Source: Sphyrna mokarran
Lineage: Eukaryota
Reading direction: 5' to 3'
NCBI GenBank assembly: GCA_024679065.1
Contig: JAGIQG010000014.1
Location: 8,742,001-8,806,000 of the forward strand
Length of the DNA: 64,000 nt
The position numbers and the translations under genes are program-made. The notes under the pieces are model-generated. The model saw nothing but the letters and a program-made list of their open reading frames with translations, was not told the origin of the DNA and searched no databases. Below are positions 16,491 through 56,241 of this stretch, in pieces; positions within the stretch are counted from its first letter, which is position 1, and the number at the start of each line of letters is the position of its first letter.

Positions 16491-19400
16491 GCACAGTATC
16501 AGCGGTGTGAGCCATCTAAAAGACACACTGCAAGGCTCCTTTGAAAGCACCTTCCAAGCCCTAAAATCTATCACCTAGAAAGAAAAGGGTGGGTAATGCA
16601 TTGTGTGCAAACTAGCGCTGCCCAGATCCCAGGATGGAATGCAACAAAAACATCTTATTTGTTTGTCGTGAGGTTGTTTCACTCTCTATAACATCCGATC
16701 AATCCATTTTTATCATGCAAGTGGCCTTGTGTTGTCGTTTCACCTCATTTTTAGCTGTGCCATATCCTTAATCTGGCATGCCATTTTCCCATATTCATTG
16801 AATCAAAATTGACTATCAATTTGATAGTAATGATAGTTTGGGTGACATGACTTGCGTCGAATTCGCAGCTTATGCTTGAATGGTGACCTGCTACCGCTGA
16901 TAGCGCACAAGGCCATTAGGATATCATGTTTTCAGTTAAAAATGTTTGGAACTTATCCCATCTACCGTAGCGGCAGTGCACACAATATAACGAAAATTAT
17001 CCAAAATTTGCAACTGAACTGTACCCTATTTAGGACATTGCGGTCGTCATCCTACCAAATCTATTGGAAGAAGTAACCGCTACATGCACAGAGTACATGG
17101 ATAAGTGCATCCGGGACTGAGATTGGTGAGGATGAATTGATTTTATTCACATTTCTTTAGTAAACATTTGGTGTTTTTTTTTTACCCTCAGCTTACCCAT
17201 ATGAACAGACCTATAAATATATTAATTTGGAGCAGAAATAGATGACATTTTCCGTGGAATTTCTTCAAGTTATTTCTTATTCTTTCAATTTTTTCTGAAT
17301 ATAAGTGCAACCTCAGCACGCCTTCAACCTGACACAGAATCGTGTTATTAATTTCGTAAAGCTCCGCTGAAATGTGTCAAATAGATTCTTTTTTTTCTTT
17401 AATAACAAGGACGCCAGGCAAGTCTCAGCCTTTCTTCTATTAGTTTTATCAGGTCAGGTTAGGCCAGCTGCTGGCGAAGCAAGATCAGTAATAACCAGCA
17501 TGACGTTTCACTGCCCATGCCTAACCTGGTGCTATGTTATTTCATTGGATTCTGTTCAAGGTTGAGGACCCCAACTCGCCCCAGGCAAACCTTTGTTGGA
17601 TGCATGACAACATGCCCTTGCCTCTGTCCATACGTAGGAATTGTTATCATGCATCACAATATCATAAGGTAAGATACAGTCACTATAACTGCATCAGTCC
17701 TTTGTTTTACTGATGACCAGCCCCCAAATGTTCAGATATTAGACTTTGACAGAATGAATGTCCCGTGCATACTGCTGTATTCTTTGGCAATGGCGATGTT
17801 CGGTGATCCATATGGCTTTGATCCACTTAGAATTCGAGTGGCTAAGTGGGCCATTTCAGAGTCAGCGACTCAGAGTCAGGGCCTGGAATCACATATAGGT
17901 CAGGCCAGGTAAAGATTACAGATTTCTTAAACAGATGGATGCTAACTTTAATCGGCCATGCTTTCATTGTCATTATTAGGGGAGTCTTTTCGTTGGTTTT
18001 CAAGTTGTACGATTGCAACAGCAATGGTAAGCTTTTAAAACGGCCGTCAGAGCAATAGCCTCTATATCTTGATTTCTCACCAAGTGTATTTTCACTACAA
18101 CATTATCTATCCAAGTGATTGTCTCCCTGATAATTGCAAAATAAAAACAAAGCCTTTGCTAAGGAAACGCGGATTATGCTTGTCACTGATAAAATTATAT
18201 GACGAAAATAGCACTGAATATATAATTCTCTGTGTTATCATTAGAATTGAATTGGGTCTATAGCTACACGGTCATAACTTGATGTTGAAATCTATTTGCG
18301 CAAAGCAAACTAAATACAATGTTATCAACGTTGCAATCTAGCATATCCCCAAGGACGCCGAATACAATAGAAAATAGTAGGCACGCACTGATTCACATTT
18401 CATAGAGAAACTTGCCCGACCACAAAGGAGCATATCACATTGTACAGAAAATATATTATCTGATAGATAGTATCCTAGGAATATATTGCAACATCCTTAC
18501 TTTTACTGGGCTTCCTGCGAAGTCACTATAGATAATAATCTTGTGCAAAGATGTGTCTCAATTGTTCTATTATTTTATTTTGCAATTGATAATGTTACAT
18601 GCTGCTTTTGAAAACACAATTTTCCAGGCAATGAAAGAATTATGTTATTTTGTTGAATCAAATTCTTGAATTACCTGAGCTGTGTTAATCAAATGTTTTA
18701 GCTGGTAATATATCTTACTATCTGACTAAGGGGCTTCTGAATGATGATGCTCATCGTGCCTTTAAAGCAACATTGTGTAGATATGAATCTGACCTCAATG
18801 CATGCAACATCTTTGAGTAAAGTTAGTAATTTCGAGTTTTTTGGGATTGCCTACTGTTGTAGAATTATATTGAGTCTTGTTCAGGAATTGAACTTGGCAC
18901 CACTGACTCTGCATGTGTTTCTGTCAGTGTAGACCTGTTCAAAGAGATGTGCACCAACTGAACTAAAATAAAATATCTGACTGCACTAATTATGTGTTAC
19001 TGTAGCTGTAATATTATACTACATGAGGCTCACCAACTCAGCACCAGAAAAAGTTTGCCCATTCCCTTTCCAGACTCTACCAAATGGACAAATGATCGAT
19101 TCGAAGTTGCATTTGCTTATTATCAATTACTCTCTGCCCATACTTACTTCAACATGTTGCACTTAATCGCTGAGTTAGACATTGAAAATATCTGATTACT
19201 AAATCGCAGTATTGTTTGCTGGCTCCCTTATAGTTAATTTTGTGGCAATTTGTGGTCTTATGCGGGGAAAATGCAGCCTCTCCACGTGCACTACTCATTA
19301 CCTGGTGACACGATATGGCAGCAGTGGATCTATTGGTTATCATCACCGAGGTAATACTGCAAAGAAATGTGTACTACTATTATTCCCGGGGTAATTTTGC

Positions 19401-19887
19401 TGTACATCGTCCCTGTATGTAGTATTATCAACATCAGACGACACTGTGTAGCCGTATAATGTTCTGTCTTGTTTAATGTCATTTTCTCCTTTGATCGATC
19501 ATTAGAAACTTGTTATCAGAAACTGAGAACTAAATATTGAAACAAGAAAACAGCAGCTGCTTTCTAATAACAATCTATTTTTTCACTCTATCAAGAATCA
19601 TAGCATTCTACTTTACATTTGAACTGTGGAGAAGTAATCAACGAAGTGACACCATTCTATTATATAAAACAACTATTTCGCTGAGCTAACATTTGACCAG
19701 TTTAATTAGGTTTTAACTTCAAATCTTTTATTTGCTTCAATTCTGCTGTTCAACGCTCTGACAATCAAACATATTTTATTGGCCAATCGAGTCAGTGAGG
19801 CACTGAAGGGTCAGAAAAAAAAGAAAGAGTCGTAGTGACCAGACACTGAGAGCAGAAGGAAGCCTTGGTATTTACTGTTCTTCATAT

Positions 19888-20648
19888 AGAACAAAGAACA
19901 TAGAACACTACAGCACAAACAGGCCCTTCGGCCCACAAGTTGCGCCGAACACATCAAAACCTACCCAGCCATAGACCTATCTATAACCCCCAATCCCATT
20001 GGATCCCATATACTCATCCAGGAGTCTTTTAAAAGACCCCAGCGAGTTCGCCTTGACCACCACCGACGGCAGCCGATTCCATTCACTCACCACCCTCTGA
20101 GTGAAAAACTTTTCCCTAGCATCCCCTCTGTACTTGCTTCCCTGCACCTTAAATCTGTGCCCTCTCGTCGCGACCATTTCAGCCCTGGGAAATAGTCCCT
20201 GAGAGTCCACCCTATCTAATCCTCTCAACATCTTGTAAACCTCTATCAGGTCGCCTCTCAATCTTCGTCTCTCCAGGGAGAACAGTCCCAGCACCCTCAA
20301 CCTGTCTTCATAAGGCATGCCTCCCAATCCAGGCAACATCCTTGTAAATCTCCTCTGCACCCTTTCAATAGCTTCCATGTTTTTCCTACAGTGAGGCGAC
20401 CAGAACTGCGCACAGTACTCCAAGTGTGGTCTGACAAGGATCCTCTAAAACTGCAGCATTACCTCCTGACTCCTGAACTCAATCCCTCGATGAATGAAGG
20501 CCAGTACACCGTAAGCTTTCTTAACCACATCCTCCACCTGGGAGGCCGATTTGAGAGTCTTATGGACCCGGACCCCAAGATCCCTCTGCTCTTCCACACA
20601 GCTAAGATTCCTACCTTTGATAGTGTACTCATTCATCCCGTTGGATGA
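19888..20648 (-). mobile_element. Young 5'-truncated CR1 inserted into pseudogene B exon 2
   Basis: Tail agaacaaagaacatagaacac. ORFs 19977-20423 and 20445-20636 are a clean CR1 ORF2 C-terminus (EYCAQFWSPH...RRRLRGDLIEVYK...FFTQRVV.WNRLP). ATAT is present at both junctions. Confidence 0.93.
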
Positions 20649-20723
20649 ATATCTGGTAGCTTCATCCTTTTGTTATCGGTGGGTGTTTTGCATGTTTCAT
20701 AATATAACATTAATGAAGCAACG

Positions 20724-20749
20724 TATATATATACACACACACATATGTG

Positions 20750-20788
<39 letters not shown>
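20724..20788. repeat. (TA)n/(CA)n microsatellite
   Basis: The dinucleotide run is directly visible. Confidence 0.95.
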
Positions 20789-20792
<4 letters not shown>

Positions 20793-23700
20793 CGAGTACA
20801 ACTTGTTAATGTTTTTCTCCCGCTTCTCCAGGAAGCAAGTCCGACTGGTTAATATTTTTCCTGGGGAGGGTGAGAGAATAGGGATGAATCGTTTGGTGAA
20901 TTGAATGGATCGATATGCTTGTTTGATGGGAGCAGCTAACATATTTAGAACAATTTGCTATTTTTTTTTTCACAGAAGAGACATATCCAGGAGTTAAGGG
21001 ACACGAGATCACATTCAGAGGACTCAAGGTAAGGATGTTGGAGGAGTAAAGCACTGACGGGCTGTGAACTGTGGGAATGTATTTTGGCTTCTTTTCAGAA
21101 CAGGTATCGCCAAAAAGCTCAGTTCATGCAGGAACTCACGAGACCAGAGTCCCAATGAAAGACACATCTTTATCGATCAACGATCAAGGTTAGCCTTGAG
21201 CAGTCAATACCTTACTAGAATAGAAAGACTTTAGAATTCTCGTTCCACTCTAAAATTGCAGTATATCAATCAGAACAATTAGACATTGCCCAAGTTTGCA
21301 TCTTTCACTTTTTTTCCAGTGAATATTATGAAATATTCATCATTTGTACAAATCAATCACTGTTAACAATTGTCTTATGCGTTAGCCAGTTGAATTATAC
21401 TCTCTGGCATCATGGAATTTCAATGGCTTGAACATCTGGATTCTTCTCCCCTCTGTCAGTTATAAATTAACAAAAAATCGGATTTTACATTTCAACTAAT
21501 TGGGAATATGCCGAGGTTTGAAGCTGTTGCAGTAACAAATTTCTTTATGCAGCGACTCAGTCTAAATTCAGAGAACAGTTTAAAAGTGCAACGAAGCACC
21601 AATTTACTGTATTTAATCCCAGATACTTAGCTACAAATGTCAAAGTTGCTGCTCCCACCAATTCTCATTCACGTCAATGGCCGAAGAAGATAGCTGCCAT
21701 TCTCATACATGAGAAGGGATGCCTTATCAGGGCAACTTGAATTGTCCTATTCATAAAGTGGCTTTAGAAGCCATAGCTTTCGTAAGGTTTTCTGAGAAAA
21801 CCATACACATTCTGTGTTTTCATTCTTCCAAGGAATGTGTTTCGTCTGCCAAAGCACCTTCCTTCACAGCCTTTGGATAAAGTGTACAATTGCCTTTAAA
21901 ATATAGCTAATAATTTCAGATATCAAAACAAATATTTAAATCGTAAATACTTGATCAAATTGCACACATAATTTAAGTCAATAAAGCGTTTATGCCACTT
22001 TCCTGATACAGTTTCCCCTGTAACACTGAGACTCTGATCTGGGGTCATTATAATTATTGCTAGCAGTTTATTTTGTCTTAAATTCCTGATAATTGGAAAT
22101 TATCAAGTATGATCTACTATGAATTTCTCCAACAGCAGAATATTTATAATGATACTATAATATGTGAAACGCTACGTGACAATGAAGGTACAATGAGCCA
22201 AATAAAAATGGGAACCTTTAGGACACCGTGGTAGATACAGAGGAGTAGGCAGACGGGCCAAAGAGCCGTGATCAGGGACAATTTTTGTGCTATCAAATAT
22301 AGGAAGGGAACTGTGTGGTGGCAGCGCATTAACAAAATCAGAGCGTCGCCAGATGGTGTGCAAGCTACAGCTGCTGAGACCGCCAACTTAGCTGGCTCGA
22401 TTCTCAGATTCTAAAGTATTGAAAGAAAGAAACGTAACTCTACTTACGAAACGAAAATTATTCAAATGTTGTAAAGCTACTTGTGAGAGCTGGTTACATT
22501 TTAAATATTACAACAGACAATTTATTGTGTCCCGGTCCCTAAGTTTCAAGCTGTAGAGCTCACAAGAATGAAACTCGAATGGGAGGTTGAGGGGAGGGCG
22601 AGTGGCGCTGTTCACGTGTTCACCTGTTCACCTGTTTACGTCCAGTCCATGTCTGGACAGAGCGACAGAGCCCGGATAAGTGATTAGAGATGACTTCGGT
22701 TAATGATACCGAGTCTCCAATGCCTCAAGCCTTTGGATGCTGGCCAACTCAATTTGTCACTGTGATAACTCTTTCAAGCTGAAAAAAGGATGTGATCGCT
22801 CAATCTGAGCTCAACTTCTGATTACTGATTCTGCTTAGCATCACTAAGGCCGCCTCTTTCACCTCTGCGACATCATCTGACTCGCTTCCTGCCTAATCAT
22901 TTCTGTGACTGGAAATCTATAGCAATCCGTCTTACCTCTGGACTTAACTATTGCAGCCTGCTGCTTTCTGACCTCAAACAATGTAACCTCCAGTGAGTAA
23001 AGGTTGTCCAAAACTTTTGTGCCTATGCCCTTATCACACAGAGCCCCATTCATCAGTTCTGATCACTGACTCATACTGTCTCGTTATATATGATTTAAAT
23101 TATTGCCACGCTTTTTAGGCCCCTTATGGTTTTCTATACCCCAGTTAATGTTCATCAATCTCCTCTTAAAGAAATTATATCCAAATCGGCCATTTTTTTT
23201 TTCCATGGCTAAAATTGTGCAGCCCTGCCAATATCTCCTGCAGGATTAATAACATTATCCAAAACTTAGTGAGAATGTTTTAATCGCAGTCTCAGGGATC
23301 ACTTTGAAGTTATGGTTAGAGAAATAATTAATGCTATAGAGATTAGCAATATATTTTGATCGCGTCAGATGGAGAGAGACCCGTCTGGAACATCAGCACC
23401 ATCTGCAATAGATGTTCTGAATCGTCTATTCCTTTCTCTGCTTCGTCCGTCTGTCAAAACTGTTTGCATTGTCTTCAGGTAGTTCATTCAAGATTAGAAT
23501 AGCTCGACTTGTGAACATCAAGCCCCTTCATCTCTTCTCTCGTTGTCACATTTGTCAATTACTACCAAGCGCCTGAAGTTGATGTTGCGATGGACAGATT
23601 GTTTTATCAATCTTACATCTTCCCATAATGCTGCATTCATTCTGTACTTTGAAGATCGGTGACAGAACGAAGTGACGAGATGATGAGGGAGAAGATTCAA

Positions 23701-24044
23701 CACACATTACTATATTATACGTTAGGTAGGTGGATTATTGAGTTTCCGGGAATGGGGTTCACCCGCGGAAACAATGTCAGTGCAGACTCGATGGGCTCCT
23801 TCGGCATTGCAGAGATTCGACATTTAACTATTCTTATTTGGTCAACACGGGCAATATCAGGTCACAGCTCACAGTACAGGTTATGACTTGACTTTCTGCA
23901 GTTTTCTTTGATCTGCATCTCTGTTTCCTTTAAGTTGATCAACAATTCCTATTATGCTTGATTTCATTTGTCATTGGTACTTTGCTGTTGACCATCCAGC
24001 CATAATCCTTCTTGATAATCTTGGAACATTAAACGCATTGACCC

Positions 24045-24365
24045 ATAAAGAACAAAGAACAAAACAACATGGGAAACAGGCCCTTCGGCCCAACGAGCAC
24101 AGGCCGCCACCCCGATGTTCCCAACTCTATCCGCGATCCCTGTCCATGTTTATAGATCTATGCATTAAAAACCAAATTTGAGACAATTTAGGGAGAATTT
24201 GTTTTGCCAATTAGCCTAAGAGCACATCTTTGGGATGTGGGAGGAAACCGGAGCGCCCGGAGAAAACCCACGCAAGCACGGGTAGAATGCGCAAACTCCC
24301 ACAGACACAGGCTCAAATCCATGTATCTGCACAGCACAGCGATAGTCACTGAGCTGTCGTGTTGC
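24045..24365 (-). mobile_element. V-SINE/HE1-like SINE
   Basis: CR1-derived tail aaagaacaaagaac...acaggcccttcggccc and the well-preserved core tgtgggaggaaaccggagcgcccggagaaaacccacgcaagcacgggtagaatgcgcaaactcc. Confidence 0.8.
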
Positions 24366-24589
24366 CCATCAGATGGTCCAGGTCAAGCGTACACTAACAC
24401 TAAGCACTAGGTGCTGAGTGAAGCACTAGGATACTCTCGAAAGAGATCCAAGAGCAGTCCTCTCACGACCCATCGCGTGTATGCCCCTCGTGAGACAACA
24501 AGGTGGACCAAAGCACCTGTAGGATAAAAACAAGTACATCAATATCATCATCTATTTACACACTTCCCAGGGACTCCCAAGGCTCATGA

Positions 24590-26280
24590 TCCCTATTTTA
24601 AATCAGTTTTCTATACCCCTCCATTCCCATTCTGTACATGTGCCCATCTAAGTATTTCTTAAATATCTCCTAAGTACCTGCCTCCACCACTTTACTTGGC
24701 AGCGCATTCCATACGCCCACAACGCTCTGTGTGAGAAAACTCCCTCTAGCATCCAAATGATACCTTACCCCCCTCACCCTACGCCCTTGACCCCTCGTGC
24801 TTTTTGAGCCCATCCTAGGAAAAAGCTTAACCCTGATTACTCAATATACCCCCTTCAAAATCTTGTACACCTCTATCAGATCTCCTCTAAGTCTACGTCT
24901 TCCTAAGGAAAACAGTCCCAAATTGCCTAAGCTGTCCTCGTAACTCAGACCTTCCATACCAGGCAGCATCCTGGTAAACCTCCTCCGCACTCTCTCCAGA
25001 GTCTCCACGTCCTTCCGGTAATAAGGCGACCAGAACTGGACGCAGTACTCCAAATGAGGTCTAACCAGTGTTTCATACAACTGCAACATTAAAGGCCAGC
25101 TCTTGTACTCTATACCCCTTCCTTTAAAGGCTAACATACTATATGCTTTTTTCACAACCTCCTTCACTTGCTCTGCCAACTTCAGAGACTTGTTCACCTG
25201 TACCCCCAGGTCCCTCTGCGTTTCTATACTCTTAATAGGTCTACTGTTTATCATTTACCTCCCCCCTACATTCTTTCTCCCGAAATGCATCACCTCATCT
25301 TTATCAGGATTGAATTCCATCTGCCATCTGTCTGCCCAAGCTACCAGCCTATCTATGTCCTGCTGCATCGCCTAACAACGCTCCTCACTATCTGCAAGTC
25401 CAGCCATCTTTGTATTGTCTGCAAACTTGCTGAACTCTCCACTTACTCCCTCTTCCAAGTCATTTATATATATTACAAACAGAAGAGGTCCCAGTATCGA
25501 GCCCTGCGGCACATCACTAGAGACCGACCTCCAGCTAGAGAAACACCCTTCCACTATTACTTTCTGTCTCCTATTACCAAGCCAGTTACTTATCCATCTA
25601 GCTACCTGTCTTTGTATCCCATTTGCCTTGACCTTCTCGACTAACCTCCCATGAGGGATTTTGTCAAACGCCTTACTAAAATCCAAATAGACAACATCAA
25701 TGGCTCGCCCTTGGTCCACTGATTTCGTCGCGTCCTCAAAAAATTCTAGCAAATTTGTAAGACACGACTTTCCCTTAACAAATCCATGCTGCGTATCCCG
25801 AATCAGATCACAACGCTCTCAGTGCCTATACATCCTACCTTTAAGAATTCCCTCCAACAGCTTCCCTACCACTGACGTCAATCTCACTGGCCTATAATTT
25901 CCAGGGTTATCCCTACTACCCTTTTCAAACAACGGTACAACATTAGCTATTCTCCACAGGGACACAGGACCTCACCTGTGTCCAAGGAAGAGACAAAGAT
26001 TTGCGTCAGAGGCCCAGCAATTTCACCTCATACCTCCCTAAGCAGTCTGGGATAAATGCCATCAGGCCAGGAGATTTATCAGTTTTAATGCTACCTGGAA
26101 GCTCTAACACTTCCTCGATCGGTACGGATATTTCCCTCAACTGGTCCACAGCTCCCTCAGAGACAGGAGCTGTCAACAAACCCCTCTCCTTCGTGAATAC
26201 CGACGCAATGTATTCATTCAGGATCTCTGCCATTCCCTCGGGCTATAAGCACAGTTCCCCACCTCTGTCCCGAAGAGGTC
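24590..26280 (-). mobile_element. CR1 LINE, ORF2 reverse transcriptase through C-terminus, disrupted
   Basis: ORFs 26006-26233 (KSPG), 25372-25752 ([13 protein letters not shown]...VPQGSILGPLLFVIYINDL...KFADNTK) and 24841-25254 ([15 protein letters not shown]). Confidence 0.93.
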
Positions 26281-41200: not shown

Positions 41201-41449
41201 TCATATCAAATTAGAAGGAACCTTTGGAAAGCGAATGGCATACAGGAGACAGACAAGTCACATTAACGTTCGTGGGAAAGTCAGGAAAAGTCATTTCGAC
41301 AGCAATATCCAACAGGCATTTGAATGGGCCTAACTTGCATGAAGTTGATCTTTCTCTACACTTTAGCTTCTAACTGCAACACGGCATTCTGCAATCTCTC
41401 GTTTAATTCTCTATGAAAAAAAATGCTTTATCAATATTTTGTGCAGCGT

Positions 41450-41632
41450 TCATTACCACACTTGCGGGTTGCTAATTTCAGACCCTAACAACGTGTTCTG
41501 TAACATTTTGAATATTTCATTCTGCTTTTGATTCTCCTGTAAATAACTGAAAACTCTGTCCTTTTTTGTCAAATCTCCCTTTGCGGATACCTCTCTACAC
41601 TGTGATAGACCGTCATTATTTTAAACACATCG
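41450..41632 (+). repeat. Direct repeat copy 1 (decayed CR1-derived); copy 2 at ~46200-46390
   Basis: Both copies share the strings ttctgtaacatt, tatttcattctg, tttgattctcctg, aaataactgaaaa and cactgtgatagaccgtcattattttaaa. Confidence 0.8.
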
Positions 41633-43435: not shown

Positions 43436-43610
43436 GGAGGTGGGATGGATGGATGGAATGGATGGATGAATGGATGGATTGACGGGAGGATGGACAGATG
43501 GACAGTTAAACAGATTGATGAAATAGTGGACAGGTGAAGCGAGCAATGGATAGGAGGGAAGAAGGAAAGACGGATTGATGAAGGAGGGATGGTGAGATGA
43601 GTGGTTGATA
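43436..43610. repeat. (GGAT)n-like degenerate tetranucleotide repeat
   Basis: ggatggatggatggaatggatggatgaatggatgg... Confidence 0.85.
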
Positions 43611-43755
43611 AATGTACGAATTGACTTGCCTGTCAATAACACCTCTTTGATATTTTTAGTCCTCGAGGGTTTTTTTTTTGTTCCGTTGTGCCGCCGGTGG
43701 TCAACTCTTGCATCAAAGCACTGAATCTTGGGGCAGATTCCAACTTAATTGTTTA

Positions 43756-44630
43756 TTAATTTAACAATCGATGTAACGGATATTTCACCATACTCTTCAA
43801 TTGCTCTCTGAACTTGGACTGAGTCGCCACGTAAATAAATGTATTTGTGCAACAGTTTAAATCCCGTAGCATATACGCAATTTTTTCAAAGTTATAAAAA
43901 GATTCAGCATCGAATCCATCACCGACGTCAAAAAAGTATAAAAGATACACCAACCACAGAAGAAGGAAGCTGCCAGGAATGGTGAACAGCAAAATGATTG
44001 ATTTCATTCTGTTCTCTATCTCTGGATCACTGTGATTCTCCCCCTTGTTCTGACCTTTCAGCTCTTTACGTTTTCGACTGCTCAGTAAAATATGTTTGAC
44101 GGTTAGGGCGTTGAGCAACAGAATTAAACCAAATGGTATCAATGGGGTTAAAATCTTTTCAAATTTTCTAAATCCAATCCATCTTGGATCAGTGAAGTAG
44201 CTTCGCTTATTATAACAGTACCATGGTACATTCTCAATGATCTTTTTCGGTTCAAATCTGAAGTAGATGGGAATGTTTTTTAAACAGAGCAAAATGCCAA
44301 TTGTAGATAGTATCAACACCGCAGTTTTCTTGGTGCAATATTTAGTTTTCAGAGAATGACAACAAATGGCGACATATCTATCAAAACTGAAAGCGACAGT
44401 AAACCAAACAGAGCAGTCCAGGGCCGCACGCAAAAGTGCATAGCGAACACTGCACACAGGGGTAATCCATAGGAAATTAATTCTGAAATAATATTCATTG
44501 ACGCGCCTGAGAATGACCTCAGTAATAATGACCACTAGATCCGCAGTTGCCATTGCCACCAGGTATTGAGTGGTGCAGTTGGAGAGGCCACAATTGCCAC
44601 ACGACAGAATGACGATTGCAAGTCCGTTAA
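43756..44630 (-). CDS. GPR139/GPR142-like GPCR gene D, coding exon 2 (spliced product 313 aa, intact)
   Basis: Acceptor tatttctcttacAG ends at 44631, and G+TT gives V-N-G-L-A-I-V. Motifs: CGNCGLS, YLVAMATADL, TPVC, SVWFTVAFSFDRYVAIC, NVPWYCY, LLLNALTV and NCCTNTFIYVATQSKFREQL. Confidence 0.92.
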
Positions 44631-45510
44631 CTGTAAGAGAAATAAGAGTCAAGAAACTGGAAATTATTAACATGCACCTGCCACTCCGAAATACATATGA
44701 CGTGATATTTAGCGTCGAAAACTGGGGATCAGGACCGGGTCGGCCTCTGGTGAACCTCAAACTTGACATCAACCACGCTTCTGCTCGCACGTTCGCGTCC
44801 GGATGACCAGTGCACCACTTCCAAATGACTACATCCCCATCCTTCAACCTGCTCCCAGGTGCCTTCAACGAGGGGAACCATCCAGGCCATTTCTGAGACA
44901 ATGACTGAGTGGAAACCTGTATTTCAGGACCAAAAGATGAATATCCATATATTCCACAAATAAAAAGAAACAGTCTGAATACGAGAGTGGTGAGAATGTG
45001 GAATTGCAAACAATTGGAGTAGCTGAGAAGAAATGTGTTGAAGAAAAAGCAAGATTTGCAGATGGGTGAAAAGGAATGAAAGTTAGATGAGTTGGAAAGA
45101 AAGAGCCCTTAAAGTAATTCTTGTAGACAGACATAGATTATTTGGGATGAATGACTATAATTTACACATGGAATATTAACTATTCATACCCATCAGTGTG
45201 TTTTTTTTTTAATACTGAAATAGATTATTGATTAAAGCACTGCACCCATAGCGCAGTGAACTTCATAATACTTCATAGGGAAAACGATCATTCAGAATCT
45301 AAAATTTGTCATTGATTCTACATAGGAAGCAATCGTTCAATGACAGAAAATGTAGCAAACTGCTGAGACACTTCTGAAAATAGCATGCATTTATTCTACT
45401 GAAAGGATGTTGAGAATTAGATCGAATTTAACTTTATCATTCATATATTAAGTTTAGAAAATACGCATGCAGAAATTTAATCATCCCGATTGACTTTTTT
45501 GGAAACTTAC

Positions 45511-45577
45511 CAGGCACACCAACTATACCAAGAACCATGTAGAATATTTTTCTGACCCATTGAACTGGTCGATGCAT
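45511..45577 (-). CDS. GPCR gene D, coding exon 1 (MHRPVQWVRKIFYMVLGIVGVP-G)
   Basis: ATG at 45577, 22 codons plus 1 nt, consensus donor G^GTAAGT at 45510. Confidence 0.9.
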
Positions 45578-45638
45578 TTTTGTGTGTGAAGTCAATCCGT
45601 CACTTTGTACAACAGACAATGCATTCACTGTGCATCGA

Positions 45639-45677
45639 TTTTATGCACTCCATGATCTCCAGGGAGTTAGTGACGTT
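45639..45677 (-). promoter_or_regulatory. Putative gene D promoter: O/E-like site plus TATA-like box
   Basis: The minus strand reads aacgtcactaacTCCCTGGAGAtcatggagtgCATAAAA, ending ~60 bp before the ATG. Confidence 0.45.
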
Positions 45678-46199
45678 TCAGAATGGTTCATTTTCTTCAA
45701 TTTAGAACAAACAGATTAACGAAACCTGTTGACGGAATATGCAAGATACTGAGAACTAATCGAACCAAAGAATATCTCATCATCTGATCACTTTTTTAAA
45801 AAATATATAAGTGCAATCCATGCTAAACAGCAATGGGCATGTACCCGTAAACAACAAGGCATACATTCTTTGATCTCATATTTTTGTTCGGAGATGACAT
45901 TCAGTCTGAGTCACAATTCAGTAGTTAAACCCCTAATATTAGAGCATTCTTTTAATACTTTGTGTTCTGAATTGTGCCTGTACATTAAGTTTTGGTATTC
46001 GATTCAATAAAAAAGAATCGAAAGAGATCAAACTATATAACGCTTGTACATAAGCTGTTGACCATTTGGTTGTTCGTGTCAGAGTCAGCTGTCTACAAGA
46101 TCAACTTAGTTCATAGTCTTTAGTTGTCCGTGGCTCTATCATTGTTGCAAAACAAAAGTTCTCGTTAGTCGCTTATTCAATTTGCATCTGACTGAACTT

Positions 46200-46390
46200 G
46201 GCACCACCACACTAGCAGGCTTCTGATTTCAGATCCTGACAATTTATTCTGTAACATTCTGATTATTTCATTCTGTTTTTGATTCTCCTGCAAAATAACT
46301 GAAAAAAAAAAATATCCTTTCTTGTGTCAAACCTGCCTTCGTGAACATCTCTCTGCACTGTGATAGACCGTCATTATTTTAAAGAATCTG
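46200..46390 (+). repeat. Direct repeat copy 2
   Basis: See 41450-41632. Confidence 0.8.
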
Positions 46391-47559
46391 TGAGGTTGCC
46401 GGAAAAAGTTCAGTCAAATTCTACACTGCGTTGATTTCATTCACATGTTTGTTCAATTGCCATGTCCAGTCGAGGATTGGGTTTGCAATCTCCCTCTATC
46501 TCTCACTCTGCCCTCAAAGCAACGCAGGTTCAAACTACCGTATATTAATTCAATACATTGATGACTGTAACCGTGCGATGACAATATGGTATTGACATGT
46601 TTTCCCTTTTAAGGGGAATATTTTAAAATTCATTTTATACAGGCAGTCTATCTGGAAGGGATAGAGTTAGTATGCCAGAGGAACAGAGAGATTACTTATT
46701 TTAGCCATATGATATATAGTTGGGAATATAGTCATAAGTTGTGTTTTAAATTGGAGACCCATTTATTTTTAACTGTGCTAACGACCACTGCACATGAGCG
46801 TGCACAAATTCTCAGCATCTAACACTGAGAAGTTTATATATTTCAATTAGAGCGCCTCCATTCTCCATATTAAGAGAATTCCAAACAAATTCTTCTTTTC
46901 ACTTAAGACAGACCTTTCTTTACTTTCCCGGGATCAACTAGCTAGACCTTTTCCGAATCTGCTCCTTTATTGGCGTCGTAAAGACTATATTCAATCCATA
47001 TGAAGGTTACTTAATTGTATTCCCATATCGTACATAACATAGCGGTGAATTTGATTAAGTCCCTCCACTGCTTCTTTCCCAAGCGAAGTTTAAAAATCAA
47101 TATCTTCAGATGAAAATATTTCATTCTCTTCAATAATGACACTGATGAATCGCTTATTCGTCCAATTTTTGAGGTTGTCGATTTGGGGGTGTGGGTCTTC
47201 CTCTGTTAATGATGCCAACTCCACATGTCCTGAAGATTTTGAATGGTCTTCTTCCAATATAGCAACTATGTCAATGCAGGCCACCTCCCTCCAGTTCTCC
47301 CTGACCAATCCCACCCCTCACCATAACCCGCACCCCTCCCCCCAAACACACACACACACACTCGTTTTCTCTGAAAATCACAATCAAAATCAGAATTAGC
47401 ATGCTCTCATTGTCCCCTTCTCTTCTGCAGCTTTTGTTTGCCTCCAATGTTGTGGCTGGTTATTTAAGTGCCAGCCCTGATTTTCTCACAAGCATCCAGA
47501 TAAATATAATTATTCTGGCAAAAAAAAACAAAACAATCAGTGGGTCTTTGATGAAGTTT

Positions 47560-48980
47560 TGACTGCCTCGTTTTGGAACGGCGGTCAGACGCTGGTGTAC
47601 TTCACACGCAGGTGGTGATCTTTTGTTTTCAGACTATGTAGTGTCACCTTTCCGTTGAACTACCTTCTCGGTAGTGAAACCAGACGACTTATTTCTTCTG
47701 CCAAATGCACAGCCTGATATATGACGTGTTGTTCCTTTTGATAGGGTTGAGGGGTTTTCAGAAATCGTCGTTAATGTTAGCGTTCTTTTACCAGGGCCTC
47801 CGTAATGTCTGGGCTATGGTTATCTTGCATCACAGCTTTCTCCCGTCTGGAATCGTGGGTACCATCAGGGAAGCCGCTCCTCAAGAATGTGTTTCTCCTC
47901 TCAATGTGCTTTCCACTGATTGGTGGAGAGATGGACTGTGGATGATGGGATGACCAGGGTCAGCAATTTGGTGGGTGGTGAGGGATGGGCTGAATGATAC
48001 CTTGCGAGTTGGCTCAATATACTACAATTGGCATCCAGCTCCTCATTGACGGTATATCTGGACTCAAAACAATAATGCTTGGACACAATATTACACAGCG
48101 TGCCGAGGATCCACACTGGTGTGGTGGAATCCCGTCCGAGCATACCCCTGTTCGGACGGAAACCCACATTGTCCGCAAATCAGCACCCGTTTCCTCAGGG
48201 ATTGAACCCCACAGTGTGAGAAACATCGCGTCGGTGCCCTCTTCCAATGCACAACGGGATTCTCTTTATGGGTATTCCTGCACACCTTCCACTTCTATGC
48301 TCCAACAATGGAGGACGCTCTATGGAGAGATCCTTCCCCTCTTCATCGGGCTGAAGACTAGTGCATGTAGTATTACATGAAACCGAAAATGTCACTTGTC
48401 CCTGGGCTCCCATATAACTTGCCGTTTTTGTGATGCCATGGAGTCCGTGAACCATGTCTAGGTTACTTGTTTTAAGCCGCACTCCTTTCAATTATTGAAA
48501 AAAATATTCTTACTGATATTCGGTTTGCATTTCACACCCCATTCCTGGTTTATGGACACTGTGTGGGGTCTGCGGGGAAGGAAGCAGATTGTCTCATGCA
48601 CCTGCTCCTCGGCCTGGCTCAGTATGTTACATATTTCAGCAGGCAAACCCGGGTTTTCTTCATTCCGTCTGTCTGCCCGTCAACTGCCGCTCTATTCACA
48701 GATGGGTGTCTCTGGACAGGGAATATGAGCCGTCTGAGGTACCGCTGAGTCCTTTCTTGATGTTTTGGACATTGGAGGGACTGTCATATTTTAACCCCGT
48801 TTAAGCACATTTTGGACCAATGCATTAAATTTCCTTCTGCGTCGTGGCTTTTTACGGGTGTTTTTTCGTCTTTTAATGGGGCTTTCATTCCGGGTTTCTT
48901 ACTGTGTTTAGTTGAGTCCGTTTTATCGTTTGTAACAAAAGGAAAAGTGGATGTCATACAGCGATAGGCCAACCTTGCGG
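47560..48980 (+). mobile_element. Tx1/L1-clade LINE, decayed 3' part of ORF2
   Basis: Plus-strand fragments FYQGLRNVW, QWRTLYGEILPLFIG, the zinc finger CRFCDAMESVNHV*VTC, and CLMHLLLGLAQYVTYFSR are typical of the Tx1 ORF2 C-terminus. Confidence 0.7.
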
Positions 48981-49070
48981 AAATTTGGAAAGCAATTTTC
49001 AAAAAACGGTAGCTAGAAATCTATAAACAATTGTTAAAACGGATCGAGGTTACCACAATCTCAAGAAGTT

Positions 49071-49102
<32 letters not shown>

Positions 49103-49110
49103 ATATATAT
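49071..49110. repeat. (TA)n microsatellite
   Basis: Directly visible. Confidence 0.95.
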
Positions 49111-50964
49111 GCGTTCTTTGGCAATTCATGCAAACAGACTCACAGCGCATTTCCCTCACAGGCAACGTAACTCATGCCTTTGCCTTTGGTTCATGAATTT
49201 GCACCAAATAATCGCGTCTGCTCAGTGGTGTGCGAGATGGCAACTGTTTACTTTTCACTAGGCCTTCACAGATTTGAGGACTGCATTGATTTCAGGGCGC
49301 TATTAGTGGAAAGAACAAAGACAGAGAGATGGATTTCATAAAAGGATAAAAAGTTTAATCTGGAGTTTTTTTTGTGGCTCAGTGTAAATTCACAAAGTTC
49401 ATTCGGATGTGGTTTGAACTCAATGAATAACAAAGTTTAGAAATGTAAATAGATCTGTGGGACATAGGTTTTGTTCATAAATGCTCCATCAATTATTCGC
49501 CTTTAATTTCCCCCGTATCATTCAGGAAGTGGCTCAAAGTTATCCCGAGAAAACATTCAAAATGTTGCTCCTGCATTAGCCTCCAAAGACAACTCAAAAG
49601 AACTTCTCTTTGACTGTGTAGTGTTCTTGGTAACAGTCATATACATATTCTATCTTAACTTTGCCGTTATCGTTTCAGATGCTGCCATCCCCTGTTTAGA
49701 TTTTTCAGTATTCTCTGCCTCTATCAAATTCTTCTCGGGTAGCCTTTTCGACGTTTTGTATTTGAGTTGAAGTCATGCATTGACTAAGTAGATAAAGACA
49801 CCGCTGACGTATGAATTTATGATAACCAATTTACTGCATGGGCACTCTAATCATCTGAGTCACAACAGTAAGTTTTCAAAACCCATTTGTGATGATTTTA
49901 TTGGCTCCTACTACAACCATGCGAATTACGAAATGTCAACTGCATTGTGTTTTCAAAGCTTTGAATATGACAATTACTGTGGTCAGATGTAAGGTGTTTG
50001 AAATTTCTTTGGGGGTAAACACAGGGACAATTACTGGTTTATGAAATTGCAAAACAATTGAAGAAGACGTTGTTGAAAAGTGTGATATATTCCACTCGAA
50101 AACAAGGCCGTTTTCGGAGTAAGGTTTATGGTGATAAATAAAATATGATGGTGTCATATTTTATTACATCACTGAGCCCAAAGTCAGAATTCAAAATCTT
50201 CCATATATATCCTTCCCCACACTCTCCTGGATAATGTGCAGTGACACAAATTAGTTCTTTTTTTTTCCTTTGCTCTCATCTGTCACTGGCAACAATTCGA
50301 AGCGCTTCCTTCAGCACCAACTTCCGAAGTCATATTGACCCAATCGGGTTTCGACATGTTTGCAGCAAAGTCAAATGGTTTATTCGGAATTTGTTAGGTT
50401 GATTTGAACTTCACAACATGCTGCCTCCATGTTATTTCTTGTCGATTTCAGGTTGGTCATGTCCTTTCTTCAGTCCTTAATGTTACACTGTTCAATTGTT
50501 ATGCAGCCATTTACAATCTTAACTGGACATATGTTTTGTCTCTTTGATATGAATATTGTCACTTTCTTTGTAATTTGCATCATGAAATGTCTTCCAACTT
50601 CCCTATTTCCCCACAAATGTTCTCTTTTGTCTACCTTGTCCCTCTCACTCCGTTTGTGTAAAACTTGTTATATTTATATATTTATTCTTTTCTGAGGAAA
50701 TACCATCAACGAGAATAATTTTGACTCTCCCCATGGATGCCCAACAGCTTGTGAAGTGTTCCAACATTTCCTTGTTTTTATAAGATTTCCAGCTGTTTGC
50801 TTTACGAGCTGACAGCATGGTTTTGAGCCAAATCTGAGATATTGGTTTAATTCATGTAATTATTTAAGTGCTTTAATATACAACATAAATTGGTAAAGCC
50901 AGATTTCATTTTCACTGACATATGTTTCATAATACAATGCTCTAAACAACAGTAAAGATCTGCT

Positions 50965-52193
50965 TAGAACATAGAACATAGAACATAGAACATTACAGCA
51001 CAGAACAGGCCCTTCGGCCTTCGATGTTGTTCCGACCAAAATAAAAAGCAATGCCCCTTCAAACTAAACCATTCCCTTCTCTTCCATATACTTATCAATT
51101 AACCTCTTAAACGCCACCAAACTTGGCGGATCTACGACAGCTGAGGCAGGGCATTCCATTCCCTAATCACTCTTTGAGTAAAGAACCTACCTCTGATATC
51201 CGTCCTATAACTCATACCCCTTAATTTAAAGCTGTGTCCCCTCGTGCTAGCTTTCTCCATCCTAGGAAAAAGGCTATCACTGTCCACCCTATCTAAACCT
51301 CTAATCATCTTATATGCTTCAATAAGATCCCTCTTAGCCGCCTCCTTTCTAACGAAAACAACCTCAAATCCTTCAACCTCTCTTCATAGGACCTGCCCTC
51401 CATACCAGGCAACATCCTGGTAAACCTCCTCTGTACCCTCTCCAATGCCTCCACATCTTTCTTATAATGTGGACCAGAACTGCACACAATACTCCAAGTG
51501 CGGCCGCACTAGAGTTTTGTACAGTTGCAACATGATGCTGCGGCTCCTAAATTCAATCCCCCTGCCAATAAAGCTAAGACTCCATATGCCTTCTTAACAA
51601 CTTTATCCACTTGACTGCCTACTTTCAGGGATCTATTGACACATACACCAAGATCCTTCTGTTCCTCAACACTATTAAGAGCCCTACCATTAGCCCTATA
51701 CTCTACACATTTATTGTTCCTGCCAAAGTGCATTACCTCACACTTTTCCACATTAAACTCCATTTGCCACCTCTCGGCCCAGCTCTGCAACTTGTCCAAG
51801 TCACTCTGTAAACTAAAACACCCCTCTTCACTATCTACCACACCACCAACTTTAGTATCATCTGCAAATTTACTGATCCATCCCTCAATACCCTCATCCA
51901 GATCATTTATAAAAATTACAAACAGCAGGGGCCCCAAAACAGACCCCTGAGGCACACCACTTGTCACCGAACTCCACGATGAATATCTCCCATCAACCAC
52001 CACCCTCTGTCTTCTATCTGCCAGCCAATTCCTCATCCAATTAGCTAAATCACCCTCTATTCCATACATCTGCATTTTCTGCAGAAGTCTTCCATGGGCC
52101 ACCTTATCAAACGCCTTACTAAAGTCCATATTAAATCCTATCCCTAATTATACTCTCCAATACTTTGCCCATAACAGAAGTAAGACTCACTGG
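50965..52193 (-). mobile_element. Young CR1 LINE, 5'-truncated, with an internal deletion near 52130
   Basis: Tail (tagaaca)x3 and ORFs 51509-52129 (DFSKAFD...[13 protein letters not shown]...FADD) and 51305-51487. It is almost identical to 30128-30790 over the shared part. Confidence 0.95.
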
Positions 52194-53464
52194 CATGACT
52201 GGACGAATTTTCAAGGATGGAGAGCTTAAAGACGGATTTTTTCTTATGGATAGGGAGAATTATAGGGACGGAAGGCTGATGTATAGAAAGGAATTGTCGG
52301 TCTGGATAAGGTTACAAAGAATGCGGGAATTGCATATCCAAGCACATGAATAATGCTTACAGCCAGACTGTTGGTTAGGAAGTTAGGCATTACTATATAG
52401 ATGGTTGCATATTACAGTGATAGATTCTGAATGTGCATGCGAACTGGCGGCGTACTCAATATCTCTGTTCCTGCGCCATGGCATTTTTTCTCATTACTGA
52501 AGTCCTAAGCACCACGTCCCTCTCTTACCTAGAACATCATGCGCAGTATATAATGATTATTATCAGATTCTTCCGGCAAGAGATTTCTAGCCCTCGTTTG
52601 GCAGTTGTGCTCTTCTGAATTGAAGATTGCTAATATTTTAAACAGTAGACCATTTGTGGCAAAAGGCTTTACGACTTTTTTTTATGTTGTAAGAAGCATG
52701 ATACGAATTCTAACAGATTATTTTTCTATTTCGATTGCAGTAACTGAAAGATCACAGGACACAAAGAAGAACACAAAACGACAGAGAAAGAGGCGTTACT
52801 AGCTAATTATTTGCTTTAATTCAAATCATAGTTGCCTATAACGCGAACCACTAAAATTTTGAAATGAAAAAAAATGCTCATGCCCTGGATTTCAATGACC
52901 TAATTTCACTAATGTGCACTTTTTGCAGTGCTTCAAGATATCGAACATAGAATTAGGACTCAAACATTTGCCCCTACGAATCTGTGAAGCCAGTCAGGAT
53001 GATTATGGCAGATCCAAACAACATACTCCCGGCACTTTCCTCGTATTCTTGACAATGTGTTTCCTTCATGACTTCCTTGCACTGATCACTGTGGAAAACA
53101 ATTAGAATAGCATATATTGTTCTTGTAGTCAGAACACAAGAAAGTATGAAACCACCAGACATTATACAGAAATGAAAAGGCATTTATCTGAAATTGGAGA
53201 ATTTTAGCTAAAGGGAGGGTTCAACAGAATGTTTGTACTTTGTTTAAAGCAGAGCTGAGCGGAAGTTTAAGGGAGGTGAGTCAAATTCTGAAAATGTTAG
53301 ATTGTTATTAGAAATGATTTATTTAGCACATAACGTTGATAGCAAAGCAGCAAGCATTTTAATTTTAATTCATTGGTCTCTTCATTAGAGGAGAGTTGAG
53401 TATGTTTTAATCAGTGATGATAGGAAATTACTCCAAGTATGTTAAACTATTATCACCAGTACAA

Positions 53465-53770
53465 TCCATAAAATCCATAGAGATTCTACACTATAGTAAG
53501 ATGCCATTCGGCCCGTGGGCCCTGAACTGACTCTGCAAAAGTGCACTCCACTTCGGCCCAGTCTCTGCCCTATTCCATGAACTCGGATCATTGACCATGG
53601 CGAATCCACTTAAACCACAACTTAAACGATGCGATGGAATTAAGGGAATTCGGAGGAAACCTACGTAGACACAAGGAAATCGTAGAACCTCCATACAGAC
53701 AGTCACTCTCGGATGGAATCAATCTGCATCTTTGGCGCTGGGAGATTGCAGTACGAAGCATTGTGCCACT
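53465..53770 (-). mobile_element. tRNA-derived SINE, paralog of 15687-15988
   Basis: It has the same aatccataaaatccatag tail and the same position within the duplicated block. Confidence 0.65.
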
Positions 53771-56128
53771 TGTCCGGAGAGATGTGCTTCGTCTTCGATT
53801 AAAATTGAGCAACCAGACCATTAACACAACTGTTCAGTTCCCAGCCTCATGGGCCGAACACGCTTGGCCTAAGAGACATTCAGGAGTACAGGGCAAATGT
53901 CTACATGACATCTTGGAAAATACCTGCACCAAATTTGCTGGAAGGAGGAGATCGATTAGTGACATTTTCAATAGACTTTTAATTGAGAATATTCAGCTGA
54001 TTAATCCATCACGTCAGCTGGTGGAATTTGAATTCAATGAAAAAAGAACTGCAATTAATAATTTACTGAACGTGGGAAACCATTGCCGATTGTTGGAAAA
54101 GCCCATCTCACCTCCCAAGTTGGCAAGTTGGCACTTGCCTGGCCAACGTGTGACTCCAGAACCGCAGCAAAACAGTTAAGTCGCTACCAGGGGCTACAAG
54201 AGATGGAGATTACATCCTGGCGAGCTAGCGATGCCCATGTCCTACGAATGAATAAAAATTGAATAGTGTCAGTGGTGTGCCAACTACGAGACACTGTAAC
54301 GTTACCATTCCAGCACCTTCCGAGTTCACTAGCTCTACTACCGAGAAGGAAAATAATACATAAATAATAATAAATAAGTTATTAATAAATAATAATAAGC
54401 TGGGACTGCCCACATTCCAGGAAAAAATAAGCAAATAAAAAGTCTTTTCTTATTGCAAGGATGCTTCTACCTGGATATCACACGCTGCGTCCACTGCTTA
54501 TCATAGCTCTGTTGTCGCTTCAAACGACAGACATGCTATTTTTACTTCTGTCAAATTTCTAACCCGGCACGCCATTTTATTCCTTGAATAAAATTTGACT
54601 ATCAAACCCGATGGCAATGGTAGTATGAGTGGTGTGAATTGCTTTAAAGTAACAGGTAATGATTAAAAAGTGTCCTGCTGGCTCTGATGGGCCTCAACGA
54701 CACATGAATGTCATGTTTCCAGTTCAAAATATTTGGAACTTTTCCCTACTAACGTGGTAGCAGTGCCAAACAGCACTAGATTGATTATCAAAAGTTTGCA
54801 GAACTTCATCTTCACATGACTGTGCTTTCGTTACCCATCAATAATATTCATCGGAGTAACGTCACATACACAAACAAAAGCACGTGGAAAGGTGCATCTG
54901 TGACAGAGTGATTGGTGAGGGTTAATATTCTTTCTTCCAGAGAATGTTTGATGCCTTTATCGCCCTCAGAACATGCCTATGAACATATCTGTGCATATAG
55001 CAATATGGATAGCGTAGACGACATAGTCTGAGAAACCTCCTTTAACACATTTATTGATATTCCAATTGTACTGAAAGTGAGCCTAAACTCGAAACACCTT
55101 CACCATCAGACTCGATCTTGCTATTAATCTCGTAAGCCTCACCTGAAATGCATCAGGCAGATTTTTTTTTTCCTTTAATTACAAGGTCACTGCAATATAA
55201 AGCACCCCAGGCGCGTGATCATCCGTTTCCTGTATTAGTTTTATCAGCTGAGGCTAGGGAGTAGATGGTGAAGCGCATGGACGAAATGGTGATGTCCAAT
55301 GGACATTTCTTTGCTCATGCCTGATCTGATGCCATGATATTTCATTACGTTCCGGTGGAGGTTGTGGACCCCACATCCGTCTCTAGAGAATCATTGCCCA
55401 ACACTTGGCTACTTGCCACCACCCGTAGCCACATGCGAGAATGGTGATAATGGTGTTTGGGTTGTTGACTGAGGAAAGTATATCTATATCAATCATTTGC
55501 TTCACTTGTGACCAGTCCTCAAAATTTCGAATGTGAGACTTTTCCCGAATTAATGTCCTGGGTATGCTGCTGTTTTTTTTTTCTCTCTCTCTGGCACCAA
55601 TGGTAATGCTTGATGATCCATATTTTTTTTTTCCACTTATAATTCAAGTGGCTAGCTCTAGTTTCAGAGCCAGCCACTTAACGAGGGTATGGACTCTTAC
55701 ATATAGGTCAAATTAGGTAAAGATTACAGATTGCCGAAACAAGTGTTTTTTTTTACTGGAATTAGCCATCTTTCATCGTCATCAGTAGAGGGGAGTTTTG
55801 TTCGTTTTCAAGTTGCAAGATTCCATTTCTGTTCAAGCAATTGCAATGTCAGGACATTAACGGCTGCCAATAGAACATTAAACTCGGTTTCTTGATTTCT
55901 CACCAACTGACCTTTTCACTAAACCAGCATCTATCCAAATGATTGGCTTCCTGGTACTTGCCAGAACAATGGACTCTCTAGCAAAACGTGACTTATACCT
56001 ATCATTGGTAAAATTATATGAATAGCACTGAAAATAGAATTCTCTGTGATATGCTCATAAATCGATGCTGAAGTATGTTTTCTCAAATCAAGCTAAATAC
56101 AATGTGATCAGAGCTGCAATCGAGCATA

Positions 56129-56156
56129 TCCCCAAGGAAGTCGAACACTGTATAAA
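56129..56156 (+). promoter_or_regulatory. Putative gene E promoter: O/E-like site plus TATA
   Basis: TCCCCAAGGA 56129-56138 and TATAAA 56151-56156; ATG at 56242. The first motif is identical in pseudogene B (18346-18355). Confidence 0.5.
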
Positions 56157-56241
56157 TTAAACACTCGAGGCACGTACTGATTCAAGTTTCATTCAGAGAG
56201 GCTTGCCCGACCACAAAGGACCAAATTAGAACACACAGAAC

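What the first reader, a model, noticed from the sequence alone, without database searches (positions are those of the whole stretch)
18346..56156. Shared promoter grammar: O/E (EBF)-like site at a fixed 20-22 bp upstream of a TATA-like box in four paralogs
Seen: E has TCCCCAAGGA(56129)..TATAAA(56151), offset 22. B has TCCCCAAGGA(18346)..TAGAAA(18368), offset 22. C has TCCCTGCAGGA(33539)..TATAAA(33560), offset 21. D (minus) has TCCCTGGAGA(45665)..CATAAAA(45645), offset 20. The flanks of C, D and E are otherwise not alignable by eye. Established: TCCCnnGGGA is the EBF/Olf-1 (O/E) consensus enriched in olfactory receptor and olfactory-neuron promoters; EBF also acts in B cells. Inference: this is a conserved cis-element pointing to olfactory-neuron-type regulation. 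Caveats: each site has at least one mismatch, B and E are not independent, and gene A lacks a clear site.
Basis: partly seen in the sequence, partly recalled or inferred. Interest (0 to 1): 0.75.

Follow-up and report, generated by a model that had tools for sequence, protein, structure and literature searches.

The report
Shared promoter of shark receptor genes
Three old copies of a shark-and-ray receptor gene, and a broken fourth, share a short promoter-like pattern resembling that of mammalian smell-receptor genes, which hints, but does not show, that this large unstudied family works in sensory neurons.

Summary
All eight motif strings are at the stated coordinates. They lie 68-113 bp upstream of the start codons of two-exon GPR139-like class A GPCR paralogs of an elasmobranch: D and E intact, C with one nonsense codon, B a decayed duplicate of E; intact gene A lacks the pair. 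Against published O/E and TATA consensus strings, 3 of 19 good O/E matches in the window have a TATA box 18-26 bp downstream, and these are exactly C, D and E. A motif-blind test gave 0 of 300 shuffles, 4 of 300 random trios and 1 of 40 control regions as high. C split from D/E before sharks and rays diverged, so the pair looks selectively retained. A third shared block (TRTTT, forkhead-like) lies 47-53 bp further upstream. Best reading: a compact proximal promoter, EBF/COE-type site plus TATA, with starts about 40-60 bp before ATG (0.6). The olfactory inference is unproven: EBF acts in most differentiating neurons and in B cells, D and E lack homeodomain sites, C's site also scores as a splice acceptor, and no expression, start-site or family-wide DNA data could be obtained.

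The parts
56129..56139 (+). Gene E O/E (EBF/COE)-like site, 113 bp upstream of ATG; 1 mismatch in the 11-nt core, 4 in the 22-nt consensus
56150..56158 (+). Gene E TATA box, 8 of 9 to staTAAAwr; predicted start about 56181
56076..56082 (+). Gene E TRTTT block (forkhead-like, 1 mismatch to a recalled consensus), 53 bp upstream of the O/E-like site
56242..56308 (+). Gene E coding exon 1; N-terminus matches shark homologs P0003, P0009
57000..57901 (+). Gene E coding exon 2 (7tm_1); spliced product 322 aa, intact
45655..45665 (-). Gene D O/E-like site, best match of the set (first 10 core positions all fit; 2 mismatches in 22), 88 bp upstream of ATG
45638..45646 (-). Gene D TATA-like box, 7 of 9, TAAA core intact; predicted start about 45615, downstream of two upstream ATGs at -58 and -47
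45707..45713 (-). Gene D TRTTT block (full forkhead-like match), 48 bp upstream of the O/E-like site
45511..45577 (-). Gene D coding exon 1
43756..44630 (-). Gene D coding exon 2; spliced product 313 aa, intact
33539..33549 (+). Gene C degenerate O/E-like site (2 of 11 core mismatches); its CAG also scores as a strong 3' splice site
33559..33567 (+). Gene C TATA box, 9 of 9; predicted start about 33590
33492..33498 (+). Gene C TRTTT block, 47 bp upstream of the O/E-like site, overlapping a TAATGA homeodomain-like word
33648..33717 (+). Gene C coding exon 1
34126..35018 (+). Gene C coding exon 2 with one in-frame stop at 34875-34877 before helix 7; probable young pseudogene
18346..18356 (+). 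Pseudogene B O/E-like site, inside a 16-nt run identical to E
18367..18375 (+). Pseudogene B decayed TATA box (core broken)
18293..18299 (+). Pseudogene B TRTTT block (full forkhead-like match), 53 bp upstream of the O/E-like site
18451..21616 (+). Pseudogene B: start codon and splice donor lost, stops and frameshifts, repeat insertion at about 19888-20648; part of a duplication 14428-22190 / 52176-59122 shared with E
7706..7716 (-). Gene A homologous position: CCC..GGG palindrome with 4-bp spacer, no O/E core match and no TATA at +18..26
7763..7769 (-). Gene A TRTTT block (full forkhead-like match), 53 bp upstream of that palindrome
7531..7600 (-). Gene A coding exon 1
2069..2997 (-). Gene A coding exon 2; spliced product 332 aa, frame open

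Best explanation
The pair is an inherited, selectively kept proximal promoter of the elasmobranch GPR139-like receptor family. A COE/EBF dimer would bind the TCCC..G.GA site (one intact half-site, one degenerate), TBP/TFIID the TATA box 20-22 bp (two helical turns) downstream, and possibly a forkhead-type factor the TRTTT block 47-53 bp upstream. Transcription would start about 30 bp after the TATA (about 33590, 45615, 56181), giving a 38-61 nt unspliced leader into coding exon 1. The expressing cell would be an EBF-positive cell, most plausibly a neuron. Shown: sequence, spacing, non-randomness, age of the paralogs. Inferred: start sites, EBF and forkhead binding, cell type.
For: Composite confined to C, D, E in 128 kb of both strands (3 of 19; 4 of 51 at the looser core threshold). 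Motif-blind score 0 of 300 shuffles, 4 of 300 random trios; highest of 11 C-D-E regions. C lies in a starred clade with a sawfish protein and apart from D/E; four-fold-site distances C-D 1.72, C-E 1.11, D-E 0.51. D and E have no good acceptor between motif and ATG (best in top 29% and 8.6% of AGs). Predicted leaders are ATG-free, and D's two upstream ATGs fall just 5' of its predicted start (chance about 0.045). TATA core is broken in the long-dead B. O/E near the start plus TATA in a subset is the documented layout of mouse OR promoters (PMC3247239 section 6).
Against: Three homologous instances only; intact gene A lacks both motifs. Mismatch thresholds and the 18-26 offset were set after seeing the sites. 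One of 40 control trios scored higher (49.7, introns of A, D, E). Pairwise alignment of upstream regions: only C-D reached p 0.018 of 6 pairs, which does not survive correction; four-way alignment was reached by 3 of 40 shuffles. B/E identity in -150..-1 (0.80) is not higher than in -540..-151 (p 0.15). C's site scores as an acceptor in the top 0.6% of AGs. B, C and E sites are also 1 mismatch from a recalled AP-2 consensus.
Confidence: 0.6

Rival explanations
1. The TATA promoter is real and conserved, but the upstream CCC..GG block is bound by another factor (AP-2, a zinc-finger protein) or is residual similarity by descent; its likeness to the O/E site is incidental.
For: Only the TCCC half is invariant; C has 3 mismatches to TCCCNNGGGA; A has a 4-bp-spacer palindrome at the homologous place; B, C, E are 1 mismatch from a recalled AP-2 consensus. 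D-E four-fold-site distance is only 0.51, so some neutral similarity may survive.
Against: D fits the first 10 positions of the published O/E core and is one of the two best 22-nt matches among 447 TCCC sites; D fits AP-2 worse (2 mismatches); C, D, E introns and 3' flanks show no comparable block.
Confidence: 0.22
2. The region is the 3' end of an intron: a non-coding first exon lies far upstream, as in most mammalian OR genes, and the motifs are splice-acceptor or branch-point sequence or bystanders.
For: C has three acceptor-like sites upstream of ATG (-100 top 0.6%, -8 top 1.4%, -51 top 2.3% of AGs) and A one at -73 (top 1.3%); a random 110-nt stretch reaches such scores in about 4-13% of cases (rough recalled matrix). 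Pyrimidine tract plus AG lies at homologous places in A and C.
Against: D and E have no such acceptor; no strong donor within 1.5 kb upstream of A, C, D, E (although true donors of A and C also score low); the TATA match is perfect in C. May hold for the A/C subfamily only.
Confidence: 0.1
3. The EBF site is real but reflects regulation outside the nose: differentiating CNS neurons (the recalled home of GPR139 is habenula and striatum), other sensory neurons, B cells or fat cells. This rival concerns the cell type and is compatible with the best explanation.
For: [quoted passage not shown] No homeodomain words within 300 bp of A, D, E, although these accompany O/E in OR promoters (PMC12547500 passages). 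Catshark nose expresses V2R/OlfC in microvillous neurons and no OR (PMC10116579 abstract).
Against: Clustered genes, frequent pseudogenes (2 of 5 here) and a very large family (1553 hits of 3784 candidates) are the pattern of chemoreceptor families (established knowledge), not of single CNS receptors; they also fit immune receptor families.
Confidence: 0.4
4. Chance alignment of short common words, noticed after the fact.
For: Unweighted motif-blind test 6 of 200 shuffles; weighted test 4 of 300 random trios and 1 of 40 control trios; TATA-like words with up to 2 mismatches occur in 31% of tiles.
Against: Externally defined composite occurs about 0.001 times per 120-nt stretch yet precedes 3 of 4 independent genes at the same place relative to ATG.
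Confidence: 0.08

Closest known systems
Mouse odorant receptor proximal promoters (O/E site, homeodomain site, TATA in a subset); PMC3247239, PMC12547500
   Same: O/E-like site within 200 bp of the presumed start, TATA box, AT-rich sequence (GC 0.35-0.42), clustered GPCR family with pseudogenes.
   Different: The genes are not ORs; no homeodomain words in D or E; O/E-TATA spacing is narrow here (20-22 bp), and no fixed spacing was stated in the passages I read; an extra forkhead-like block; the promoter seems to abut coding exon 1 instead of a distant non-coding exon (the latter recalled for ORs).
EBF1/COE binding site TCCCNNGGGA (PMC4312928 passage)
   Same: One perfect TCCC half-site and a pyrimidine-purine spacer in B, C, D, E; D and E/B have 1 mismatch.
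   Different: No site is a perfect palindrome; C has 3 mismatches; binding untested.
GPR139 / GPR142 (human GPR139, PDB 7vug, 9m42)
   Same: Best solved relative (profile E 6e-17, 64.9 bits; single sequence E 3.5e-10); databases name the family 'probable GPR139'.
   Different: Only distant similarity, a few bits above bombesin and other peptide receptors in the single-sequence search; many paralogs per genome in elasmobranchs; orthology not tested. A review table lists separate 'NMOGPR' and 'Orphan 139-like' groups beside GPR139/142 (PMC5207463); whether these are this family was not determined.

Membership tests
EBF/COE (O/E) binding site | Match to TCCCNNGGGA / TCCCyngrgar with 2-bp spacer | tested here: met
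   D and E 1 of 11 core mismatches; B 2 of 11; all three 1 mismatch to TCCCNNGGGA
EBF/COE (O/E) binding site | Same match for gene C and gene A | tested here: inconclusive
   C 2 of 11 core, 3 of 8 to TCCCNNGGGA; A no match with an intact TCCC core better than 3 mismatches
EBF/COE (O/E) binding site | Bound by EBF protein; mutation changes expression | not testable with these tools
   needs EMSA, CUT&RUN or reporter
TATA-box core promoter | TATA consensus staTAAAwr | tested here: met
   C 9 of 9, E 8 of 9, D 7 of 9; B core broken; A none at the homologous place
TATA-box core promoter | Transcription start about 30 bp downstream | not testable with these tools
   no RNA run listed; no clear initiator by eye
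OR-type olfactory promoter | O/E site within 200 bp of the start | tested here: inconclusive
   met relative to ATG and predicted start in D, E; true start unknown
OR-type olfactory promoter | Homeodomain (Lhx2/Emx2-type) site near the O/E site | tested here: not met
   none within 300 bp in A, D, E; one word in B, four in C (recalled word list)
OR-type olfactory promoter | Drives expression in olfactory sensory neurons | not testable with these tools
   no expression data; catshark tissue tables in the supplement of PMC11979771 could not be read
Odorant receptor (OR) gene family | Match to olfactory-receptor Pfam model and OR relatives | tested here: not met
   only 7tm_1 at significance for 4 of 4 proteins; nearest relatives are GPR139-named
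GPR139 orthologs | High identity and single-copy orthology to GPR139 | tested here: inconclusive
   weak similarity; no tree with true GPR139/GPR142 was built

The most novel reading that the evidence does not exclude
The large elasmobranch GPR139-like family is an unrecognised chemosensory receptor family expressed in olfactory neurons, recruited through an O/E-TATA promoter like that of odorant receptor genes; sharks and rays would then have a far larger olfactory repertoire than the 20-62 genes now counted.
Probability: 0.25. Interest if true: 0.9.

Novelty: new variant of a known kind. Interest (0 to 1): 0.5.

Why it matters
Cartilaginous fishes are credited with the smallest olfactory receptor repertoires of vertebrates (mean 43.8 complete genes, 20-62; PMC10869828 passage) despite large olfactory organs (PMC10116579 abstract). 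Here a GPCR family with over a thousand database relatives carries, in three old paralogs, the kind of promoter found on odorant receptor genes. It gives a concrete, cheap test (existing tissue RNA-seq, in situ, 5' RACE, family-wide motif scan) of where this family is expressed. On its own the motif is an ordinary kind of promoter, and EBF sites are not specific for the nose.

Tried and rejected
No whole genome is held for this window, so the family-wide promoter scan could not be run. Two metagenome scans for host DNA with family alignments found no relative (337 and 191 pattern matches, none confirmed). N-terminal extensions of predicted homologs were checked as a window on upstream DNA: 9 of 132 parsed proteins (of 240 held) had 16 or more residues before the exon-1 motif, none usable (one search likewise). 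No further exon-1/promoter copies in the window beyond A-E. No Rfam match; no satellite array upstream of the genes, 7 short tandem repeats elsewhere. Reading C's site as an 11-nt gapped EBF site was rejected in favour of an ungapped reading. Ikaros and RBPJ words fit no better. A possible upstream donor conserved in B/E near 55716 did not reach the donor threshold. Paper searches for a description of the shark family listed none that describes it; the library lacks most subscription journals, so absence from print is not shown. A search for the site strings in print listed 13 papers, none holding them; my recollection that rodent Olf-1 sites tolerate the E-type mismatch stays unverified. The supplement of PMC11979771 (tissue expression tables) was too large to read and may bear directly on expression; the paper under doi 10.1093/molbev/msv179, which I recalled as the source of the 'Orphan 139-like' group, is not held.
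Full report
Setting. The window is elasmobranch DNA with LINE fragments and five copies of a two-coding-exon class A GPCR. Gene E finds 1553 relatives among 3784 candidates; the 120 listed all carry shark names, nearly all 'probable GPR139'. Gene A finds 424 of 1471; of 120 listed, 118 carry shark, ray or skate names and 2 have none. The nearest solved structure is human GPR139, at a distance. A (332 aa), D (313 aa) and E (322 aa) have open frames; C has one in-frame stop at 34875-34877; B has lost its start codon and donor and carries stops, frameshifts and an insertion. B and E are one duplication of about 8 kb at 69% identity over 5251 aligned columns. E's start codon is supported by near-identical N-termini in other sharks.

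The observation. All strings and offsets are as reported. To avoid a motif defined from the data I used the consensus strings in Table 1 of PMC3247239 (passages). Of 447 oriented TCCC sites, 19 have at most 4 mismatches to the 22-nt O/E string; 3 of the 19 have a TATA at +18..26, and they are C, D and E. At the looser core threshold 4 of 51 do, the fourth at 32998. 14 of 447 TCCC sites have such a TATA at all. The background rate of the composite is about 0.001 per 120-nt stretch. Thresholds and offset range were chosen after seeing the sites, so I also ran a motif-blind two-block search on the C, D, E regions -135..-15. It recovered the same pair; 0 of 300 shuffles and 4 of 300 random trios reached its score, and 1 of 40 control region-trios from the same genes exceeded it. 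The unweighted version gave 6 of 200. Whole-region alignment tests were weak: C-D p 0.018 as the best of 6 pairs; three-way 0 of 40 shuffles but z only 1.7, four-way 3 of 40. A pattern drawn from the three sites matches only them, which is circular and not counted.

Age and retention. In a tree of the 4 window proteins and 50 of the 240 fetched proteins, picked by hand (bootstrap not fully settled, midpoint root), A and C lie on one side of a 100/100 branch and D and E on the other; rays occur on both sides, and C sits in a starred 7-row set with a sawfish protein. So C parted from D/E before sharks and rays did, unless the root lies inside that set. Four-fold-site distances are 1.1-1.7 for C against D/E and 0.51 for D-E. 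Introns and flanks of C, D, E show no comparable shared block. Retention by selection is therefore the simplest reading. B adds little: -150..-1 is 80% identical to E, above the far upstream region (66%, p 0.0002) and the intron (71%, p 0.03) but not above -540..-151 (p 0.15). B's TATA core has decayed while its O/E-like site has not.

All five regions appear homologous. A TGTTT/TATTT block lies 47, 48, 53 and 53 bp upstream of TCCC in C, D, E, B, and 53 bp upstream of a CCC..GGG palindrome in A; such a core falls in a given 8-base range in 4.7% of positions, but the block was found after the fact and the forkhead label is recalled. C's site aligns without a gap to D's (10 of 12). A has no O/E core and no TATA at the homologous place. 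A start 30 bp after the TATA would give leaders of 58, 38 and 61 nt without ATG; D's two upstream ATGs fall just outside.

Mechanism. Inferred: an EBF/COE dimer on the TCCC site, TBP two helical turns downstream, perhaps a forkhead factor upstream, short unspliced leader. EBF1 binds TCCCNNGGGA as a dimer contacting both half-sites (PMC4312928 passages). D and E fit with one mismatch; C fits poorly, and its CAG scores as an acceptor in the top 0.6% of AGs on a rough recalled matrix. A and C have further acceptor-like tracts before ATG while D and E do not, so a distant non-coding exon remains possible for the A/C subfamily.

Olfactory or not. [quoted passage not shown] Here D and E have no homeodomain word within 300 bp. 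Ebf genes act in most differentiating CNS neurons and in B cells (PMC3117877 abstract and section 13), and mutation of the Olf-1 site did not change the OMP pattern (as cited in PMC6549253, passages). The catshark nose expresses V2R/OlfC and no OR (PMC10116579 abstract and passages). The 50 most specific genes of the catshark brain-plus-olfactory library held no GPCR (PMC11979771 passages); this says little, since V2Rs were not among them either. No expression data could be had. The olfactory reading thus rests on the motif and on the birth-and-death pattern of the family.

Literature. Seven searches (listings only) showed no paper on this family in sharks. Passages of PMC8455134 speak of a paucity of GPCRs in cartilaginous fishes; PMC10869828 counts 20-62 olfactory receptor genes; neither PMC11979771, PMC10116579 nor PMC10869828 contains the word GPR139 in its main text. 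PMC5207463 lists an 'Orphan 139-like' group in a table. PMC13378369 (passages) gave nothing of use. Two earlier notes of this scan, from other genomes, describe the same kind of family and one a conserved TATA promoter; they are unchecked leads.

Verdict. Observation confirmed and somewhat extended; promoter reading 0.6; olfactory receptor family reading 0.25. Interest 0.5; a new variant of a known kind of promoter on an apparently unstudied receptor family.

Noticed in passing
window 2069-57901: Five members of a very large elasmobranch GPR139-like family in 56 kb, two of them broken; they belong to at least four old lineages, so the cluster is not a recent tandem array. No description found in the paper library.
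   Followed up: partly
window 7763-7769, 18293-18299, 33492-33498, 45707-45713, 56076-56082: Shared TRTTT (forkhead-like) block 47-53 bp upstream of the CCC block in all five genes, including A.
   Followed up: partly
window 33549, 33597, 33640 and 7673 (minus): Acceptor-like pyrimidine tracts upstream of the ATG in C and A, absent in D and E; may mark a non-coding first exon in that subfamily.
   Followed up: partly
window 2129-2200 (minus): Gene A has an open frame but changed residues in the helix-7 motif (CAKKCIY where relatives have CTNTFIY/CTNTCIY); it may be decaying.
   Followed up: no
window 57143-57152 and 19384-19393: A second O/E-like match lies inside exon 2 of E and B (3-4 mismatches in 22); probably set by the coding sequence.
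   Followed up: no
introns of A (+341), D (+320), E (+260) after the donor: Two-block word ATGAAT ... CATGT shared by three introns scored above the promoter pair in the motif-blind test; chance or an intronic element.
   Followed up: no
window 55699-55732 and 17892-17924: Well-kept stretch about 520 bp upstream of ATG in the B/E duplication (18-nt identical run); possible distal element.
   Followed up: partly
window 28100-28300: Assembly gap of 192 N; LINE reverse-transcriptase fragments at about 19900-20600, 24800-26100, 30100-31200 and 51000-52200.
   Followed up: no
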